A DNA stretch of 20,176 bases from a virus. Taxonomy: Duplodnaviria > Heunggongvirae > Uroviricota > Caudoviricetes. This document shows positions 10,145 to 16,972 of the stretch, piece after piece. Each line of letters starts with the position of its first letter. The stretch's first letter is position 1. A program made the position numbers and the translations under genes. Location: IMG/VR virus record IMGVR_UViG_3300015179_000039. One strand, written 5' to 3'. Under the pieces are notes generated by a model. It did no database searches. It saw nothing but the letters and a program-made list of their open reading frames with translations, and was not told where the DNA came from.

Positions 10145-10717
10145 TCAGGGGGATTCATTGCTCTTATTTGCCGGAAATTTTCTATAAATTGTGGAAACAC
10201 CTACATCAAAAATCAGTGCAATACGCTGTCTTGATTCTCCAGCCTCGAGTAAACGTCCAATCTGTGCCCACTGTTCGGTGGTCAACTTAGGACGGCGTCC
10301 ACCTACTCTGCCTTTGGCGCGAGCTGCAGCAAGCCCCGCCCTGGTACGTTCAACTATCAGTTCGCGCTCCATTTCAGCCAGGGCCCCCATGACATGAAAA
10401 AAGAAACGGCCCATTGGGGTACTGGTATCAATACTGTCAGTCAGGCTTCGGAAATTCACGCCGCGCTGGCGCAACTCTTCTATCAGCGTAACAAGATGCC
10501 GCATACTGCGCCCCAACCTGTCCAGCTTCCAGACAACCAGTGTGTCACCTGCCAATAGTGTCCTGAGCAGTTTTTTAAGCCCCGGTCTGTCGGACTTAGT
10601 GCCACTGATTTTGTCCTCAAAAATCCGCTCACATCCCGCGCAGTTCAGTGCATTACGTTGCAAATCGGTGTTCTGGTCATTTGTTGATACGCGTACATAG
10701 CCAATAAGCATGATCAT
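10145..10717 (-). CDS. serine recombinase, DNA invertase (Hin/Gin/Pin/Cin/Min family)
   Basis: 190-aa ORF with N-terminal resolvase catalytic motif (IGYVRVSTNDQ, catalytic Ser) and a C-terminal HTH (GESRQRIALIFDVGVSTIYRKF). Lies adjacent to an inverted-repeat-bounded tail-fibre cassette. Confidence 0.93.
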   Translation of the reverse strand: MIMLIGYVRVSTNDQNTDLQRNALNCAGCERIFEDKISGTKSDRPGLKKLLRTLLAGDTLVVWKLDRLGRSMRHLVTLIEELRQRGVNFRSLTDSIDTSTPMGRFFFHVMGALAEMERELIVERTRAGLAAARAKGRVGGRRPKLTTEQWAQIGRLLEAGESRQRIALIFDVGVSTIYRKFPANKSNESP

Positions 10718-10738
10718 CCCCCTGAATAAAAACCGGAG

Positions 10739-11113
10739 ATGATGCCAGTTAGCCGTTATCTCTGCATTTTCTTAAACGTTGGTTTGGGAGAAGCGGCAAA
10801 ACGAAATGTGGGAACAGGGGAAAATCAGATACCTGATATGTCATCATATGCATCAGGTTCAGGCTGGCGAAAAATGCCAGATGGTTCAATTGAACAGTGG
10901 GGACGAATTAGTTTTCCTGATGAACACGGGCCTGTATCCGCCAATGTTTCATTCCCGATTCCATTTACACAGACACCGGGCATTGTAATTGTGTGCGATG
11001 GTGGTTTCGGGGGCGGGAATATGTGGGGGGCGACCAACTGGAGCACTACCGGCTTCATAGCTCACTGCAATTATGGTCTTGAAGGTGGTGCGTTTTTCGC
11101 TAAGGGTTGGTAA
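10739..11113 (+). CDS. silent alternative tail-fibre C-terminal cassette (Sv'-like)
   Basis: The ORF has no credible own start. It shares the LGLGE junction with H at the crossover site and continues with an unrelated Gly-rich C-terminus (...[14 protein letters not shown]...). Only codons after about 10792 would be used after inversion. Confidence 0.7.
10767..10792. repeat. recombination site (hix/gix-like), invertase-proximal
   Basis: ttttcttaaacgttggtttgggagaa; its reverse complement TTCTCCCAAACCAACGTTTAAGAAAA resembles Hin hixL (TTCTTGAAAACCAAGGTTTTTGATAA, recalled from memory). Inverted partner of the site at 12577-12602. Coordinates within 2 nt. Confidence 0.6.
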
Positions 11114-11556
11114 TGATGAAATATCTGTACGTAAACAACCTGGCATATCCTTACGAACTTCAGTCTCTTTATGTTGAAAAAGGTGAATGGCCGGAAGAAA
11201 AAGGTGTTGATATAGACGAAGTAATTTTCAGGGAATATTTCTATGATACACCACCAGAAGGAAAATACAGATGTGTCGGAGAGGATGGACTGCCTGCATG
11301 GGCAGATATTCCTCCACCAACACGTGAAGAACAAATTGCATCAGCCGAAACTAAAAAGCAGCAATTGATTAATCAGGCCAACGAATACATCAACAGTAAA
11401 CAATGGCCAGGTAAAGCATCAATTGGTCGTCTGAAAGGTGAGGAACTGGCGCAATATAATTTGTGGCTGGATTATCTGGACGCACTGGAACTGGTCGATA
11501 CTTCCGGTGCGCCAGATATTGAATGGCCTACGCCTCCGGCAGTTCAGGCCAGATGA
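11107..11556 (+). CDS. tail fibre assembly protein (alternate, partner of the silent cassette)
   Basis: 149-aa ORF with the C-terminal tail-fibre-assembly signature (...[25 protein letters not shown]), shared with the convergent tfa at 11528-12130. Start overlaps the end of the Sv' cassette. Confidence 0.85.
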
Positions 11557-12130
11557 CATCCGGCGCGGTGCTGGTATCTGTTGCCGTCACCGCGTCAATG
11601 TAATCCAGCACAGCGTTAAGCCGGGTTGTTTCTGCCTGCGTCAGTTTACGTCCGGCCTGCAATTTCAGTTGAATCAGACTGATGGAAGCCATTGCAGTAT
11701 CAATCAGCGACTGGCGCTGTGCTTCTGCTGCATCTACTGCGGCGCTATGCTGTGCCTCGGTATCCGTCACCCATTTCTCACCATCCCATTTATCGTATGG
11801 CGTTAATGGGGCGATAGTGGTTGTATTTTCAGGGTAATCACCCGGAGCTGTGATTTCTTTTGATTCTCCTGTTTCAGTGCTATAGACCGTTTCACCGCGA
11901 TGGTCTGGCACATATTCCCATGAGTTAAGATCTGCAGAACGGCAAATTGCATAACCAGCTTTATATGAGCTAGGAGCATCTAAACAGGAACTTGCCGGGA
12001 TACCGACGCCGACAGCGATATATTCATTTGATGTGGAAATATATTCCCGTGTTTCGCCATCATAGTTATAGACGGTAATATTCCCCGCCTTCGTGGCAAT
12101 AAGCTCGATATTTAATACGGCTTTATTCAT
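11528..12130 (-). CDS. G: tail fibre assembly protein (currently expressed orientation)
   Basis: 200-aa ORF immediately downstream of H, with C-terminal ...[25 protein letters not shown] typical of gpG/Tfa chaperones. Confidence 0.85.
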   Translation of the reverse strand: MNKAVLNIELIATKAGNITVYNYDGETREYISTSNEYIAVGVGIPASSCLDAPSSYKAGYAICRSADLNSWEYVPDHRGETVYSTETGESKEITAPGDYPENTTTIAPLTPYDKWDGEKWVTDTEAQHSAAVDAAEAQRQSLIDTAMASISLIQLKLQAGRKLTQAETTRLNAVLDYIDAVTATDTSTAPDVIWPELPEA

Positions 12131-13638
12131 CAGGCTGCCCTCACGATATAGTTAAATGCAATATTCCGTGGGCGAGTATCGGCAGGAACGACATACATTT
12201 CACCAATTGCCCGCTCATTAGAGTTGTTAAGCAATAGGCTTGAGCCATTACTGTCATGACCCGTAATTAAGATATCATTGGACAAAATAAGTGAGCCCGT
12301 ACCTGCAGGAATACCATAAATTCCCATATCAAATTTAATATAACCAACACGCGCGCTCTGTGCAGACATAACGCTGCGACCAGTATCTACTGAACGACCA
12401 TCATCCCAGCCACGAATAAATTCACCGCGTAAATCAGGCAATTTATTGGTCGGGTAAGCCCTTGCCAGTTCCGGGTATTCTTCAGCAGAAAAAGCCGCAC
12501 CATTGCATTTCAGCCAGCCTGTTGGCGGAGTGGCTGAAGGCCACGGAACAGGCACCCCAACCGGTAATGCAGAGCCTTCTCCTAAACCAAGGTATGTGAG
12601 AAGACCAGCTACATCCTTTCCACTCAAATTAGTCAGCGTATTGTCCAGCGGTTGTTTACCTGCCAGTGCATTAAGCATTGTCGTGGCAAAGTTCGGGTCA
12701 TTCCCCAGCGCTGCCGCCAGTTCGTTCAGTGTATCCAGTGCCGCAGGTGCAGAACCCACCATTGCCGCAATTGCCGATTTCACAAAAGCCGTGGTGGCAA
12801 TCTGTGTATTGTTGACCGACTGTGCCGCAGTAGGTGCGGTTGGCGTTCCGGTGAGTGCCGGACTCGACAGCGGCGCTTTCAGTGCCAGCGCATTGTTAAT
12901 GGTGGTACTGAATTTCGGATCATTGTTAATGGCTGCGGCTATTTCTTTCAGCGTGTCCAGCGTGGCTGGCGCACCATTAATAAGAGCCGTCAGAGCCGCC
13001 TGAACAAACGCGGTGGTCGCAATCTGCGTAGTATTATTCCCCGCCGCTGGCGTTGGCGCTTTGGGGGTTCCGGTAAACGTCGGACTTTCTTTGAGTGCAT
13101 ACTGTGAATGCGGGTCCGGTGCGGCAAGATGTTTTGCCATCTGATCATCCGCGTACACCTTCAGCTCCAGTGCCTTGTCATCCACATACTTGCGGGTTGC
13201 CAGCACTACGGCAGGGTCGATTTTCAGGGTGATATTGTCCGTACTGCTGGTAATCAGCACCATGCGCACGGTCTGAGTGCGCCCGCTACCTTCAGCCAGT
13301 TGCGGCTTATAGCTTTCCGGGCAGTTGCCCACGGCAATCAATGCCCCGGACTCATCAAACAAGCCCACTTCACGTATCCACCAACCGCCCTCGTTTTCAG
13401 GGATCACCTGTTCGGCAATAATCTGGCTGCTGTTCTGCGGGTCGATATAGAGCATATTCAGCGCAGCCCGGCGTTTCTCATTTACCAGTGCAGTCTGCTT
13501 TGAGTCTGGCGTTGGCAATACTCCGCCGCCATCGCCGACCGCCATATGGGTAATTTTTAGCGGCACACCGAGCGCGGCGGCGCTGGCAAGTTTCGCCGCG
13601 CCAATATCCGTCAGCAGGGTATAAAATTTTGTGCTCAT
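12130..13638 (-). CDS. H: tail fibre protein H
   Basis: 502-aa ORF with a P2 H-like N-terminus (MSTKF...MAVGDGGG), two tandem modules of about 72 aa, and a variable C-terminal domain after the LGLGE crossover motif (residues about 351-354). Confidence 0.9.
   Translation of the reverse strand: MSTKFYTLLTDIGAAKLASAAALGVPLKITHMAVGDGGGVLPTPDSKQTALVNEKRRAALNMLYIDPQNSSQIIAEQVIPENEGGWWIREVGLFDESGALIAVGNCPESYKPQLAEGSGRTQTVRMVLITSSTDNITLKIDPAVVLATRKYVDDKALELKVYADDQMAKHLAAPDPHSQYALKESPTFTGTPKAPTPAAGNNTTQIATTAFVQAALTALINGAPATLDTLKEIAAAINNDPKFSTTINNALALKAPLSSPALTGTPTAPTAAQSVNNTQIATTAFVKSAIAAMVGSAPAALDTLNELAAALGNDPNFATTMLNALAGKQPLDNTLTNLSGKDVAGLLTYLGLGEGSALPVGVPVPWPSATPPTGWLKCNGAAFSAEEYPELARAYPTNKLPDLRGEFIRGWDDGRSVDTGRSVMSAQSARVGYIKFDMGIYGIPAGTGSLILSNDILITGHDSNGSSLLLNNSNERAIGEMYVVPADTRPRNIAFNYIVRAA
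12577..12602. repeat. recombination site (hix/gix-like) inside H
   Basis: ttctcctaaaccaaggtatgtgagaa; the first 14 positions match the reverse complement of the 10767-10792 site at 13 of 14. It sits on the codons for YLGLGE of H. Confidence 0.6.
12649..13086 (-). repeat. tandem duplication of a module of about 216 bp (72 aa) within H
   Basis: Protein repeats GTPKAPTPAAGNNTTQIATTAFVQAALTALINGAPATLDTLKEIAAAINNDPKFSTTINNALALKAP and GTPTAPTAAQSVNNTQIATTAFVKSAIAAMVGSAPAALDTLNELAAALGNDPNFATTMLNALAGKQP, with the corresponding direct DNA repeats. Confidence 0.8.
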
Positions 13639-14240
13639 GGATTCACTCTCATTGTGTCAATAACATGGACCGCCCCGCCTTCATGCGCGGTGCCGCCAGA
13701 AATAATTGTTTCGTTGATATACGGATAGATCGTGATTTCTTCGCCAAGATAGCTGGCGGCCCCCACCCAATGCGGACCGCTGGTCTGCAGATTGATGGAC
13801 ATGCCGATCATGTGACGGCTACATGGTTTGGCATCGCTTATCAGCCGCTCAAGTTCCAGATAGGTATCTTCAGTGATGCCCTGGTCCTGCACGCCGATAT
13901 CCAGGCGAAACGTGCCCGGTGTTTCTCCGGTCTGCCACCACTCAATAATGCGGATCAGGAATCCGAACGGTTCCACCACCCGCCGCACGGCACTGGTGGT
14001 TCCTTTATGCTGATGAATATAAAAAGCATCCTTCACTACCTGGCGTTTGACGCTTTCTGTCCAGCCCTCGTCCCAGCGATCCACAGAGAACGCCCAGGCG
14101 AGATAAGGCAGGAAGCTGACCGGACAGGTAGCCGGATTCCACAAGTCACGCAGCGGCACCTGCAGATCAGAAATCCCGCTGCACGTTTGCGCCAGTCGGC
14201 GCTCCAGTGAAGTTGAACCCGGTGGCAGCAGACTATTCAT
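13635..14240 (-). CDS. I: baseplate assembly protein I
   Basis: 201-aa ORF between J and H, the P2 gpI position. Overlaps H start and J stop by a few bases, typical of a translationally coupled operon. Confidence 0.85.
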   Translation of the reverse strand: MNSLLPPGSTSLERRLAQTCSGISDLQVPLRDLWNPATCPVSFLPYLAWAFSVDRWDEGWTESVKRQVVKDAFYIHQHKGTTSAVRRVVEPFGFLIRIIEWWQTGETPGTFRLDIGVQDQGITEDTYLELERLISDAKPCSRHMIGMSINLQTSGPHWVGAASYLGEEITIYPYINETIISGGTAHEGGAVHVIDTMRVNP

Positions 14241-15141
14241 CCGTTCCTCCGTTGGTTACGCTCCACTGCGTACATGATGCCGCCTGTGTTTTGTTCAGGA
14301 CCACATCCGCCAGAGGAGAAGCCAGCTCCACACGCTGCACACCCTCAACATGCAGGGCGGCAAAGATGGCGCTACGGCGAATATCCCGACCAAGACGCGT
14401 CTGACTGGCGATGTACTTCTGCAGGCTGGCTTTTGCCGCTGCCATTACCGGCTCTGCTTCCGGTCCCGGATAGAGAAAAATGGTGGCTTCCACGCGATAC
14501 GGGATGATTTCTGCGCTGCGAACCGTAAGACGGTCAGCCACCGGGCGGACGTTCTCACTGTTCAGAGCTTTTTCCACCACGTCCAGCAGGTCTTTTTCTG
14601 CGGTTCCATCGCCTTCGCGGCTAAGGACAGTCAGCACCACCTCTGCAGGTGCCGGGCTGGTTGCACTGGCATCCGCCACCCGACCGTCGGCGCTTCGGGC
14701 ATGAAATTCATAAGCTGCAGTTGGCCCCGCAACTGAAAGCCCTTCAAAGGCTGCAGGCACACGCAGGCGTAACGCTTCATCGCTTTCCATCACAGCTGCA
14801 ACGGGCGGCACAGCGTCATTATCAGCAGGCGTCACCGTCAGGCGTTTCACGTTGTAGTTGGCAGCGAGCTGGTCCAGATCGCCGCCCATCGCATAAGCCA
14901 CCATCACTGCCTGCGCGGCTTCGTTAATGCGCTGGCGCAGAAGCAACTCACGGTAAGCGTTCTCCTGCAACAATTTGGTGACGGGTTCAGATTCCAGTTC
15001 CAGCGTACGCATCACGGCTTCCTGCTCATCTTTCGGATGAAGCGCCACAAATTCTGCCTTGCGTTCGGCAAGCAGCGTCTCAAAGTCCGGCACATCCACA
15101 ATCTGCGGCGCAGGCAACTGCGAAAGGTCAATCACTGCCAT
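14233..15141 (-). CDS. J: baseplate wedge protein J
   Basis: P2 J-like sequence (MAVIDLSQLPAPQIVDVPDFETLLAERKAEF...). The track ORF extends to 15180 from an alternative start; I place the start at the ATG near 15141, which is preceded by AGGAG. Confidence 0.88.
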   Translation of the reverse strand: MAVIDLSQLPAPQIVDVPDFETLLAERKAEFVALHPKDEQEAVMRTLELESEPVTKLLQENAYRELLLRQRINEAAQAVMVAYAMGGDLDQLAANYNVKRLTVTPADNDAVPPVAAVMESDEALRLRVPAAFEGLSVAGPTAAYEFHARSADGRVADASATSPAPAEVVLTVLSREGDGTAEKDLLDVVEKALNSENVRPVADRLTVRSAEIIPYRVEATIFLYPGPEAEPVMAAAKASLQKYIASQTRLGRDIRRSAIFAALHVEGVQRVELASPLADVVLNKTQAASCTQWSVTNGGTDE

Positions 15142-15487
15142 TCTCTGCTCCTGTTGATACGGAAAGGGACACAGGCACACCGTTATTCCGCCGCCCGGTC
15201 AGCTCCACCACCATAGAACCGTCAAAGTTGCTGTTGATGGTGATGGAATCCAGCGTCAGCCGTGGCTCCCAGCGACTCAGCGCCACATACACTGCCGACA
15301 TGACCTGCAGGCGTAATGCCGGATTTTGTGGCTAATCTATCAGTGCCGACAGTAGGGAACCATATTCCCGACGGGCAATGCGGCTACCCTGCGGCGTCAG
15401 CAGAATGTCCCGCACCGACTGGCGCAGATGGTCAATATCAGTAATGACTTTGCCGCTGGTATTGTTCATCCCGCTATAAAGCGTCAT
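15128..15487 (-). pseudogene. W: baseplate protein W interrupted by an in-frame TAG (amber) at codon 52
   Basis: Reading the minus strand from the ATG at 15487 (ATGA overlap with the V stop) gives MTLYSGMNNTSGKVITDIDHLRQSVRDILLTPQGSRIARREYGSLLSALID, then TAG at about 15332-15334, then 67 more in-frame codons (PQNPALRLQVMSAVYVALSRWEPRLTLDS...) ending 13 nt inside J. The ORF track shows no minus-strand ORF of 60 aa or more across this interval. Confidence 0.7.
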
Positions 15488-16062
15488 ACCGGGCCTCCGG
15501 TTGTGTCGCCGCCTTTCAGGACGCCAGTATGCTGATGTGCATCAACCACAATTCCGTTAGAACTCATTGCACCGCCGCCCTGGGTAACACCACCATTGAT
15601 CACTACTTCGCTGTTAATACGCGTGCGGTCAGCCTCCAGCACAAACTCACTGGTTTTCAGGGTGATGTTGTCGGCAGCCTCAATGACCATGGATTTGATG
15701 CCCCTGACATACCAGCGCCCGGTGGCGGGTTCGTATTCAAACCAGCCACCGTCAGGATGTTCTGTCACGCAGGCGTCCGCCGACGTCGAAGGTGGCGCGA
15801 ACTGATTCGAATAGACAGCGGGCAACGCAAAGGCGGTTTCCAGATTGCCTCCCAGACTCAGCAGCACCACCTGCTCACCTTCCGATGGTCGCCACCATGT
15901 GCGGGCATTCCCGGCACGCAGCGTCAGCCAACTGATCCAGTTAGTTTCAAGGTCGCCCGTTTTCACCCGGCAAAGCCAGTTCTCCCGGTCCACTTCGGTA
16001 ACTACACCTGTGCGGATCAGGTTGGTGATAAGGCGCATGATTTCGGTTAATTGTGCGTTCAT
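15484..16062 (-). CDS. V: baseplate spike/hub protein V
   Basis: P2 V-like sequence from the ATG at 16062 (MNAQLTEIMRLITNLIRTGVVTEV...), about 192 aa. The track ORF 15484-16305 adds an N-terminal extension through AT-rich non-coding DNA, which I reject. Confidence 0.9.
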   Translation of the reverse strand: MNAQLTEIMRLITNLIRTGVVTEVDRENWLCRVKTGDLETNWISWLTLRAGNARTWWRPSEGEQVVLLSLGGNLETAFALPAVYSNQFAPPSTSADACVTEHPDGGWFEYEPATGRWYVRGIKSMVIEAADNITLKTSEFVLEADRTRINSEVVINGGVTQGGGAMSSNGIVVDAHQHTGVLKGGDTTGGPV

Positions 16063-16108
16063 AGATATATGATGACAGATGAAAATTTGTTTATAACTTC
16101 TTGCAAAT

Positions 16109-16126
16109 TGTGGTATCGATGGTACA
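16109..16126 (-). promoter_or_regulatory. candidate Ogr-binding element (TGT-N12-ACA) of late promoter PV
   Basis: tgt-ggtatcgatggt-aca centred about 55 bp upstream of the V start codon, closer to the ATG than expected for a -55 site. Overlaps the likely promoter of the divergent AT-rich gene. Confidence 0.35.
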
Positions 16127-16165
16127 AATTGACAAAAGGATAAAAAACAACCAATAGGTGGATAA

Positions 16166-16972
16166 ATGAGTGTTATGAATCCAATAAGTTCTAATATATT
16201 TAATGCTGAATTTTTAAACACCCCGGCAGCGGCACTTGCCGCATGGATTTCCATTATTGGAGCTGTTATAACTTTGGTGACGATAGTTATAAGAGCACTA
16301 TTCAAATATAGAAAATCTCATGATGTAATTTTGAAAAAATCAGGAATACCTGCGTTTATATTAAATTTCTTTCTTATAAAAATATCATTAAAAAGGCTGC
16401 CTACTATCACATGGGCTGAAAAATCATTCACGGTTCTATTTTCGCTTCTTTTTTTGTGTGCAATTTATCTTTTTGGTCCAGTTTTCATCCAAGCCATTAG
16501 AACCCCACCAAATAGCACATTGCTTTATTGGATAAAGTCCGGTGAATCATTTTATATGTCAAAAAAAATGGCGACTGCAGCTACAATATTAACCACTCCT
16601 GATTGGGAAATATCAAAGGATGATTGCGAAGAGTCATCCTCTGCCAGTACAGAGAAGTACAAATCATTAACTATCGAACATAAAGAAATTCTTTGTAAAC
16701 TACTAACCACTGATGAAGGGAATGCTTACATTGATGAAGAAGTCAAGAATTTCGTTAAAGACAAATTTTTTATCTATTCCTTTGCCCCAACAACTATATT
16801 TATTCTATTATGGATTTCTTTGGGTTTTATACTGACCATTCACTATTCTAAAAAAGTTAGAAAATATATTCTAACTGAACAAAAAAATGCAATTCATTGG
16901 GCATATGGTGAATTCAAGACAGAAGGAATCTATTCAATATATCAAGAGTTAGAACATAAGACTCACCATTAA
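16166..16972 (+). CDS. AT-rich moron gene: hypothetical multi-pass membrane protein
   Basis: 268-aa ORF with ATG start and an AGGTGG Shine-Dalgarno 6 nt upstream. GC content is visibly far below the flanking tail genes. Predicted TM helices near residues 20-45, 88-110 and 205-230 (possibly one more at 60-75), plus a charged loop of about 95 aa. No motif I recognise. Confidence 0.7.
   Translation: MSVMNPISSNIFNAEFLNTPAAALAAWISIIGAVITLVTIVIRALFKYRKSHDVILKKSGIPAFILNFFLIKISLKRLPTITWAEKSFTVLFSLLFLCAIYLFGPVFIQAIRTPPNSTLLYWIKSGESFYMSKKMATAATILTTPDWEISKDDCEESSSASTEKYKSLTIEHKEILCKLLTTDEGNAYIDEEVKNFVKDKFFIYSFAPTTIFILLWISLGFILTIHYSKKVRKYILTEQKNAIHWAYGEFKTEGIYSIYQELEHKTHH

What the first reader, a model, noticed from the sequence alone, without database searches (positions are those of the whole stretch)
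15128..15487. Baseplate gene W carries an in-frame amber codon: prophage is probably tail-defective
Seen in sequence: the W reading frame is collinear with P2 W and coupled to V and J by overlaps, but is interrupted at codon 52 by TAG in the context ...SALID-TAG-PQNPALRLQ.... The ORF track confirms that no minus-strand ORF of 60 aa or more spans the interval. Established knowledge: gpW is an essential baseplate component in P2. Inference: unless this is a sequencing error or the host carries an amber suppressor, the prophage cannot make infectious particles, yet the surrounding genes look intact, so the inactivation is recent.
Basis: partly seen in the sequence, partly recalled or inferred. 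Interest (0 to 1): 0.55.

Follow-up and report, generated by a model that had tools for sequence, protein, structure and literature searches.

The report
Amber stop in prophage baseplate gene
A P2-like prophage in a wild-type E. coli has a real single-base change (CAG to TAG) that cuts its essential baseplate gene W in half, which is an ordinary, recent step in prophage decay and not a new kind of biology.

Summary
Gene W (gpW/gp25 family, minus strand 15487..15128) has an in-frame TAG at codon 52 (window 15334..15332). The only difference from the intact W of E. coli HS and 21 other complete-genome records is C->T at W nt 154, giving Gln52 (CAG) -> amber. Among relatives, 207 of 207 have CAG there and 200 of 200 complete W genes are intact. 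The TAG allele is absent from 5,426 complete E. coli genomes and from three large contig collections.

It is not a one-off error. An independent ENA metagenome contig (L005) is the same prophage (1 internal mismatch in 9.76 kb) and carries the same T.

All 22 other phage genes in the window are full length. No tRNA is encoded in the window, and no unusual RNA structure follows the stop.

The 51-aa product keeps under half of the sheath-initiator domain. The prophage therefore most likely cannot build baseplates unaided in a non-suppressing host. That phenotype is inferred, not shown. Caveats are low-level Gln readthrough, a host suppressor, or a co-resident P2-like helper.

A second prophage (L002) has TAG at the same codon on a different W haplotype, which is probably chance. 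The finding is ordinary and of low interest.

The parts
15335..15487 (-). W codons 1-51. This is the only part expected to be translated, giving a 51-aa N-terminal fragment of the gpW/gp25 baseplate wedge (sheath initiator) protein.
   Evidence: Searches give the sequence and frame. In one search the fragment alone scores 18.3 bits against GPW_gp25, below the 27.2 cut-off. In one search the aligned domain spans residues 6-99.
15332..15334 (-). Amber codon TAG at W codon 52, derived from CAG (Gln) by a C->T change at window 15334. The next base is C (TAG-C).
   Evidence: the single difference from E. coli HS W; 207 of 207 relatives have CAG; context.
15128..15331 (-). W codons 53-119 plus the natural TGA stop. 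The sequence is still intact but now lies downstream of the amber codon. It includes an in-frame ATG at codon 63 with no good Shine-Dalgarno sequence.
   Evidence: In one search the 57-aa fragment scores 17.4 bits, below the cut-off.
15484..16062 (-). Gene V (baseplate hub/spike), intact at 192 aa. Its stop overlaps the W start (ATGA).
   Evidence: 96.9% identity to HS V over 192/192 residues, no stops; Phage_base_V in the identical locus L005.
14233..15141 (-). Gene J (baseplate wedge, gp6-like), intact at 302 aa. Its start lies 14 nt inside the 3' end of W and has its own GGAG 6 nt upstream (window 15148..15151).
   Evidence: 99.0% over 302/302; J ATG at W nt 347, 190 nt after the TAG.
13635..14240 (-). 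Gene I (baseplate wedge, gp53-like), intact at 201 aa.
   Evidence: 97.5% over 201/201.
12130..13638 (-). Gene H (tail fibre), a 502-aa open frame and the last large gene of the V-W-J-I-H operon.
   Evidence: (Phage_tail_fib plus Collar domains).
16109..16126 (-). TGT-N12-ACA dyad (TGTACCATCGATACCACA) 64 nt upstream of the V start. This is a candidate Ogr-dependent late promoter element for the V-W-J-I-H operon.
   Evidence: pattern found. One search finds a sigma-70-like match at 16135..16107 on the same strand. Assigning it to Ogr rests on my own knowledge of P2 late promoters and was not tested.

Best explanation
This is a genuine, evolutionarily recent nonsense mutation in baseplate gene W of a P2-like prophage integrated next to ybjL in a wild-type E. 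coli. The change is C->T, CAG(Gln52)->TAG. Translation stops after 51 of 119 residues. The product lacks more than half of the single gpW/gp25 'sheath initiator' domain, so wedges and baseplates cannot be completed and no tails are polymerised. On induction the prophage would produce at most DNA-filled heads without functional tails. It is a freshly 'grounded' prophage, which is ordinary mutational decay of a gene that is not under selection while the phage is lysogenic. Shown here: the mutation, its derived and rare status, its presence in an independent assembly, and the intactness of the neighbouring genes. Inferred: loss of gpW function, and hence loss of infectivity, in a suppressor-free host.
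For: The TAG at codon 52 was read directly. It is the single-base difference from the intact HS allele. The intact 119-aa protein is on at least 1000 contigs. No complete E. coli genome of 5,426 has the window's W sequence, and the best 22 records differ by exactly 1 nt. The TAG allele has 0 hits in viral, metagenome and GTDB genome contigs, while a flank control finds at least 207 loci. In those loci 207 of 207 have CAG and 200 of 200 complete W genes are intact; they comprise 47 distinct protein variants, and 55 of 98 variable sites are at third codon positions, which indicates purifying selection. The same T occurs in independent assembly L005, which matches the window at all but one internal base (12461) over 9.76 kb. 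All 22 other phage genes in the window are full length with no stops. The repaired protein is GPW_gp25 (50.8 bits) and both fragments fall below the cut-off. It aligns over residues 6-99 with the solved R-pyocin sheath initiator PA0617 (6u5b, E=6.5e-17), so the stop removes residues 52-99 of the domain. [quoted passage not shown] In-frame stops are most frequent in mobilome genes and are mostly read there as pseudogenes (PMC7918605).
Against: No reads were available, so the base call rests on two assemblies whose independence at the sample level I could not verify. The phenotype is untested. UAG in E. coli can be read by near-cognate tRNAs, including Gln (PMC4333366), and Gln would restore the wild-type residue. 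TAG followed by C is, from my own knowledge, a comparatively weak termination context, so the allele could be leaky. The host's glnV/tyrT alleles, and any second P2-like prophage, lie outside the window. About 3% of W-positive complete genomes carry more than one similar W (1059 places in 1028 genomes).
Confidence: 0.85

Rival explanations
1. Sequencing or assembly error: the true base is C and W is intact.
For: The difference is a single base from a very common allele. No read data were available.
Against: A separately assembled contig (ENA ERZ27315456 k141_10980, L005) has the same T. It differs from the window elsewhere (12461), so it is not the same consensus. A second prophage (L002) shows that TAG at this codon does occur in nature. 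The site is not in a homopolymer.
Confidence: 0.04
2. The stop is real but functionally leaky or suppressed. Either near-cognate tRNA-Gln readthrough at UAG-C or a host amber suppressor (supE/glnV-type, inserting Gln) yields enough wild-type gpW for some infectious particles; only a few copies are needed per baseplate.
For: Near-cognate insertion of Gln, Tyr and Trp at UAG in E. coli is documented (PMC4333366). Gln would recreate the wild-type protein, since the ancestor is CAG. The +4 base is C. Evolutionary persistence of some in-frame TAG/CAG sites has been argued (PMC7918605).
Against: [quoted passage not shown] There is no tRNA in the window. The RNA downstream of the stop folds no better than shuffles (z = -0.05). 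The stop is not conserved (0 of 207 relatives), so nothing suggests a programmed event. The host flank matches wild isolates from animals, humans and water, and natural isolates are not known to me to carry supE commonly.
Confidence: 0.08
3. The defect is real but masked in trans. A second P2-like prophage in the same cell supplies gpW, or repairs the allele by recombination, so the element still spreads.
For: Morphogenetic defects of prophages are complemented by co-resident prophages in E. coli O157 Sakai (PMC2669165). Some genomes carry 2-4 similar W genes. The contig of the identical prophage (L005) begins 1 base beyond the window's last base and ends inside the invertase gene. That pattern is what repeats in an assembly produce, and it is weak evidence for related sequence elsewhere in the sample.
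Against: The median is one W per genome, and only about 3% of positive genomes have more than one at megablast sensitivity. No second copy can be seen from this window. Contig breaks in a metagenome can come from other strains.
Confidence: 0.1
4. Codon 52 is a mutational hot spot, or the amber allele is positively selected (for example, the host benefits from a tail-less prophage). This would explain the recurrence in two prophage lineages.
For: L002 (Logan ERR14063886) has TAG at the same codon on a W haplotype with 13 differences from the window, including the adjacent base (GAC TAG versus GAT TAG), so simple inheritance or a long conversion tract is unlikely.
Against: I found L002 by looking up exactly the 51-aa product, so the search could only find this site. 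W has only 7 single-transition routes to a stop, so a coincidence is about 1 in 7 given two such events, within a very large sequence collection. The site is not a Dcm CCWGG site. The allele is absent from 207 sampled relatives and 5,426 complete genomes. Of the 10 contigs shown that carry the 51-aa product, 8 are contig-end truncations of CAG-type alleles: 7 end in C at nt 154 and L006 ends at nt 153. The lysis genes are intact, so a tail defect would not spare an induced host cell.
Confidence: 0.03

Closest known systems
Bacteriophage P2 gpW / phage 186 M protein (Peduoviridae baseplate wedge protein)
   Same: Same position in the V-W-J-I-H late operon, with the V/W and W/J overlaps. tblastn identity is 54.6% to P2 W and 58.7% to 186 M over about 90% of the length. 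Pfam GPW_gp25.
   Different: The window's copy is interrupted by an amber codon at position 52. The prophage is not P2 itself but belongs to a lineage common in E. coli and Klebsiella (96-99.7% nt identity to many prophages).
T4 gp25 / T6SS TssE / R-pyocin PA0617 'sheath initiator'
   Same: Same single-domain family. The repaired protein aligns over residues 6-99 with PA0617 of the solved pyocin baseplate (6u5b, E=6.5e-17), and more weakly with eCIS/AFP homologues. The role as sheath-polymerisation initiator and essential wedge component is taken from PMC4604203.
   Different: Those proteins are functional. Here only the N-terminal 51 residues can be made without suppression.
Classical amber (am) mutants of phage tail genes, and point-mutation pseudogenes in 'grounded' or defective prophages
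   Same: A single CAG->TAG transition in an essential morphogenetic gene, with otherwise intact neighbours. It would be conditional on an amber suppressor, as laboratory am mutants are. This matches the general picture of prophage decay (PMC7918605; PMC2669165).
   Different: This one arose naturally in a wild E. coli lineage and is seen in metagenome-derived assemblies. It was not isolated by mutagenesis.

Membership tests
GPW/gp25 baseplate wedge (sheath initiator) family, Pfam PF04965 | Sequence match to the family profile above the curated threshold | tested here: met
   The repaired 119-aa sequence scores 50.8 bits against a cut-off of 27.2, E=1.5e-13. PA0617 (6u5b) matches at E=6.5e-17.
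GPW/gp25 baseplate wedge (sheath initiator) family, Pfam PF04965 | Small single-domain protein (about 110-130 aa) encoded between the hub/spike gene (V) and the gp6-like wedge gene (J) | tested here: met
   119 codons. V (Phage_base_V) lies upstream and J (Baseplate_J) downstream, with overlapping stops and starts.
GPW/gp25 baseplate wedge (sheath initiator) family, Pfam PF04965 | Uninterrupted reading frame, that is, a functional member and not a pseudogene | tested here: not met
   TAG at codon 52. Each fragment alone falls below the Pfam cut-off.
Recent nonsense pseudogene in a decaying prophage | The stop is derived and rare relative to close relatives, in a gene otherwise under purifying selection | tested here: met
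   0 of 207 relatives have it and 200 of 200 complete W genes are intact. 55 of 98 variable sites are at third codon positions. It is absent from 5,426 complete genomes and from three contig collections.
Recent nonsense pseudogene in a decaying prophage | No further degradation of the gene or its neighbours (recency) | tested here: met
   W is identical to an existing CAG haplotype apart from nt 154. The 22 other phage genes in the window are full length.
Recent nonsense pseudogene in a decaying prophage | Loss of function, shown by no tails or no PFU | not testable with these tools
   This needs induction, electron microscopy and complementation experiments.
Programmed stop-codon readthrough / recoding site | Stop codon conserved among relatives | tested here: not met
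   CAG in 207 of 207 relatives.
Programmed stop-codon readthrough / recoding site | Stimulatory RNA structure just downstream of the stop | tested here: not met
   The 100 nt after the TAG fold at -31.6 kcal/mol against a shuffle mean of -31.4 (z = -0.05).
Phage-encoded amber suppressor system | A suppressor tRNA gene in the phage | tested here: not met
   ARAGORN finds no tRNA in the 20-kb window. The part of the prophage outside the window was not seen.

The most novel reading that the evidence does not exclude
The same Gln52 CAG->TAG change arose independently in at least two P2-like prophage lineages (the window/L005 lineage and L002). It would be maintained because UAG-C at this position is read through by tRNA-Gln often enough to give the wild-type protein at low dose. 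That would make tail production a leaky, conditional switch, or the site would be a true mutational hot spot, instead of a dead gene.
Probability: 0.03. Interest if true: 0.45.

Novelty: already known. Interest (0 to 1): 0.1.

Why it matters
The practical value is modest. The result flags this prophage as probably unable to make infectious particles, or to serve as a tail donor for P4-like satellites, despite looking complete. Prophage-prediction tools would likely score it 'intact'. It is a clean, datable example of the first step of prophage grounding: one point mutation with everything else untouched. It does not open a new question about phage or translation biology.

Tried and rejected
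1. I looked for the exact truncated products in the 15-billion-protein collection. The 51-aa product appears on 26 contigs, but reading the DNA showed that 8 of the 10 places shown are contigs that simply end at W nt 153/154 (7 end in C at nt 154, so they are CAG alleles). Only L005 and L002 have a real TAG. The raw count of 26 contigs must therefore not be read as 26 amber alleles.

2. L012 looked like a different W disruption (32-aa plus 57-aa ORFs), but it is a run of N in a scaffold.

I replaced it with a window-derived flank pattern.

4. Hot-spot idea: the site is not a Dcm CCWGG site. The ancestral GATC (Dam site) exists only in the window's background, not in L002's (GACC), so no common methylation context explains both.

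5. Rho-dependent polarity on J-I-H: the 190 untranslated nt before J are not C-rich over G (maximum C/G 0.96 in 78-nt windows), there are no terminator-like sites, and J has its own GGAG. Strong polarity cannot be predicted from sequence, so this is left open.

6. Reinitiation at Met63 to give a 57-aa C-terminal fragment: the Shine-Dalgarno context is poor (AGG only 2 nt from the ATG) and the fragment scores below the family threshold. I judged it unlikely to matter.

7. Lab-strain origin (a supE host): the host flank is 100% identical to many wild isolates, which does not indicate a laboratory origin.

8. One preprint on the P2 tail structure appeared in a search listing but could not be opened.

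9. I did not run a structure prediction, because the alignment to a solved homologue already locates the truncation.

Full report
**Observation.** On the minus strand, the frame 15487..15128 translates as MTLYSGMNNTSGKVITDIDHLRQSVRDILLTPQGSRIARREYGSLLSALID*PQNPALRLQVMSAVYVALSRWEPRLTLDSITINSNFDGSMVVELTGRRNNGVPVSLSVSTGAENGSD*. The internal stop is TAG at window 15334..15332, which is codon 52. The ORF list shows the frame split into a 51-aa ORF (15332..15487) and a 57-aa ORF (15128..15301), with no longer minus-strand ORF across the interval. V's TGA overlaps W's ATG (ATGA). J's ATG at 15141 lies 14 nt inside the 3' end of W and is preceded by GGAG.

**What the gene is.** With Gln restored at codon 52, the 119-aa protein hits Pfam GPW_gp25 at 50.8 bits (cut-off 27.2). 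Each fragment alone falls below the cut-off. The protein aligns over residues 6-99 with PA0617, the 'sheath initiator' of the solved R-pyocin baseplate (6u5b, E=6.5e-17), and more weakly with eCIS/AFP homologues. By tblastn it is 54.6% identical to P2 W and 58.7% identical to phage 186 M. The window is the late region of a P2-like prophage lying next to the host genes ybjM and ybjL. On the minus strand it reads L, X, holin, lysozyme, lysA, lysB/C, R, S, V, W, J, I, H, then sheath, tube, E/E', tape measure, U, D and ogr.

**The mutation.** Aligned with the W gene of E. coli HS, the window differs at one base of 360: C->T at W nt 154, CAG->TAG. The intact 119-aa protein is on at least 1000 public contigs.

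**How rare the allele is.** Of 5,426 complete E. coli genomes, 1,028 carry a similar W. None matches the window at 100%, and the best 22 records are 359/360. The allele-specific pattern CTGATAGAYTAGCCACAAAATCC has no match in IMG/VR viral contigs, in the metagenome collection or in the GTDB species-representative genomes. A control pattern taken from just 3' of the stop finds at least 120 viral and 87 metagenome loci. In those loci codon 52 is CAG in 207 of 207, and W is an intact 119-codon gene in 200 of 200 complete copies. These comprise 85 nucleotide haplotypes and 47 distinct protein variants, and 55 of 98 variable sites fall at third codon positions. W is therefore kept intact by selection in this phage group, and TAG is a rare derived state.

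**Is it a sequencing error?** An exact look-up of the 51-aa product found it on 26 contigs. Reading the DNA showed that most are contigs that simply end at W nt 153/154; seven of those eight end in C at nt 154, so they are ordinary CAG alleles. Two are real. L005 (ENA ERZ27315456, k141_10980, 9,769 nt) is the same prophage as the window. It is identical over 9.76 kb apart from one base at 12461 and a few bases of contig-end noise. It carries the same DUF6216 moron, the same 502-aa H gene and the same TAG. Two different assemblies therefore agree on T, which makes a random base-call or assembly error unlikely. I could not see reads.

**A second occurrence.** L002 (Logan ERR14063886) is a different prophage. 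It is about 97.5% identical, lacks the moron, and its W haplotype has 13 differences from the window, including the base immediately 5' of the mutation (GAC TAG versus GAT TAG). It also has TAG at codon 52. The simplest reading is an independent C->T event. I do not think this signals a hot spot or selection, for four reasons:
- The search could only find this site.
- W offers just 7 single-transition routes to a stop.
- The collection covers an enormous number of E. coli data sets.
- There is no shared methylation motif: it is not CCWGG, and GATC is present in only one of the two backgrounds.

**Recency and context.** W has no other change relative to an existing CAG haplotype. All 22 other phage genes in the window are full length and stop-free when compared with E. 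coli HS (H and G differ because the tail-fibre module is a different one). A TGT-N12-ACA dyad sits 64 nt upstream of V. From my own knowledge, this is what P2 Ogr-dependent late promoters look like. The operon therefore appears functional apart from W.

[quoted passage not shown] PMC3004832 gives the same W=gp25 and J=gp6 homology. A 51-residue fragment that lacks residues 52-99 of the aligned domain is very unlikely to work. My own recollection, not checked here, is that W amber mutants of P2 are tail-defective (Lindahl's mutant collection; Haggård-Ljungquist et al., Virology 1995). The prophage should therefore be unable to make baseplates, and hence tails, on its own in a non-suppressing host.

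**Rivals.**
- *Error:* addressed above (about 4%).
- *Leakiness or suppression:* UAG can be read by near-cognate tRNAs, including Gln, in E. coli, mostly when RF1 is absent (PMC4333366). Gln would restore the wild-type protein, and the +4 base is C. Against this, there is no tRNA in the window, no unusual downstream structure (z = -0.05), no conservation of the stop, and a host flank identical to many wild isolates. I estimate about 8%.
- *Trans-complementation or repair by a co-resident P2-like prophage:* this is possible in principle (PMC2669165), but only about 3% of W-positive genomes have more than one similar copy.
- *Polarity on J-I-H:* this cannot be predicted. The untranslated 190 nt are not C-over-G rich, there is no terminator-like site, and J has its own ribosome-binding site.

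**Verdict.** The finding is real and correctly interpreted, but ordinary. It is a recent point-mutation pseudogene in an otherwise intact-looking prophage. This is the well-known first step of prophage decay, and mobilome genes are the category richest in in-frame stops (PMC7918605). Interest is low (0.1). In terms of distance from known kinds of system, it is already known.

Noticed in passing
window 10145-12130 (invertase 10145..10717 minus strand; 10739..11113 plus; 11107..11556 plus; 11528..12130 minus): This looks like a Mu G-segment/Pin-type invertible tail-fibre cassette. A 190-aa serine recombinase (Resolvase plus HTH_7, 178 bits) lies next to an opposite-strand alternative tail-fibre C-terminus (Gp53-like_C) and a second tail-fibre assembly chaperone (Caudo_TAP), downstream of H and its own chaperone. 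A simple inverted-repeat search found only weak 18-nt pairs, so the crossover sites were not identified.
   Followed up: partly
window 16166-16972 (+), between S and V: An AT-rich moron (30-37% GC against about 57% in the flanks) encodes a 268-aa DUF6216 protein (49 bits) on the strand opposite to the late genes. Its 3' end overlaps the 3' end of gene S by 59 nt. The window's S protein is only 90% identical to HS S, and the match stops 2 residues short. E. coli HS and L002 lack this insert.
   Followed up: partly
L002:10001-10156 (Logan ERR14063886_289): A different P2-like prophage (no moron, W haplotype 13 nt different) also has TAG at W codon 52, preceded by GAC instead of GAT. This is probably an independent C->T mutation at the same site.
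   Followed up: partly
L003, L004, L006-L011 (contig ends) and L013-L021 (contig starts): Many short-read (Logan/ENA) contigs from unrelated samples end at W nt 153/154; seven of the eight end in C at nt 154, so they are CAG alleles. Others start at W nt 185-187, about one 31-mer further on. Part of this is selection by my exact-sequence look-up. However, six contigs ending on the same base suggests a recurrent assembly-graph branch here, such as a mosaic boundary between co-occurring P2-like prophages. This is not explained.
   Followed up: no
L004:6291-7608, L007:2937-4254, L009:1595-2912: Relatives that carry the same DUF6216 moron have a shortened scaffold gene (GPO, 250 aa instead of 277) followed directly by lysB. 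The major capsid, small terminase, L, X, holin, lysozyme and lysA genes are deleted, so these prophages are grossly defective. L004 also carries a reverse-transcriptase (RVT_1) cargo gene near the portal gene.
   Followed up: no
window end (20176) versus L005:1-2; window 10409-10414 versus the L005 end: The contig of the identical prophage (L005) starts 1 base beyond the window's last base and stops inside the invertase gene. Coincident breaks like this suggest repeats (a related prophage or invertase elsewhere in the sample) and suggest that the window may be a whole short contig. This bears on the trans-complementation rival.
   Followed up: no
L012:9807-10174 (JGI 3300029253): An apparent second kind of W disruption (32-aa plus 57-aa gene calls) is an artefact of a run of N in the scaffold, not a mutation.
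   Followed up: yes
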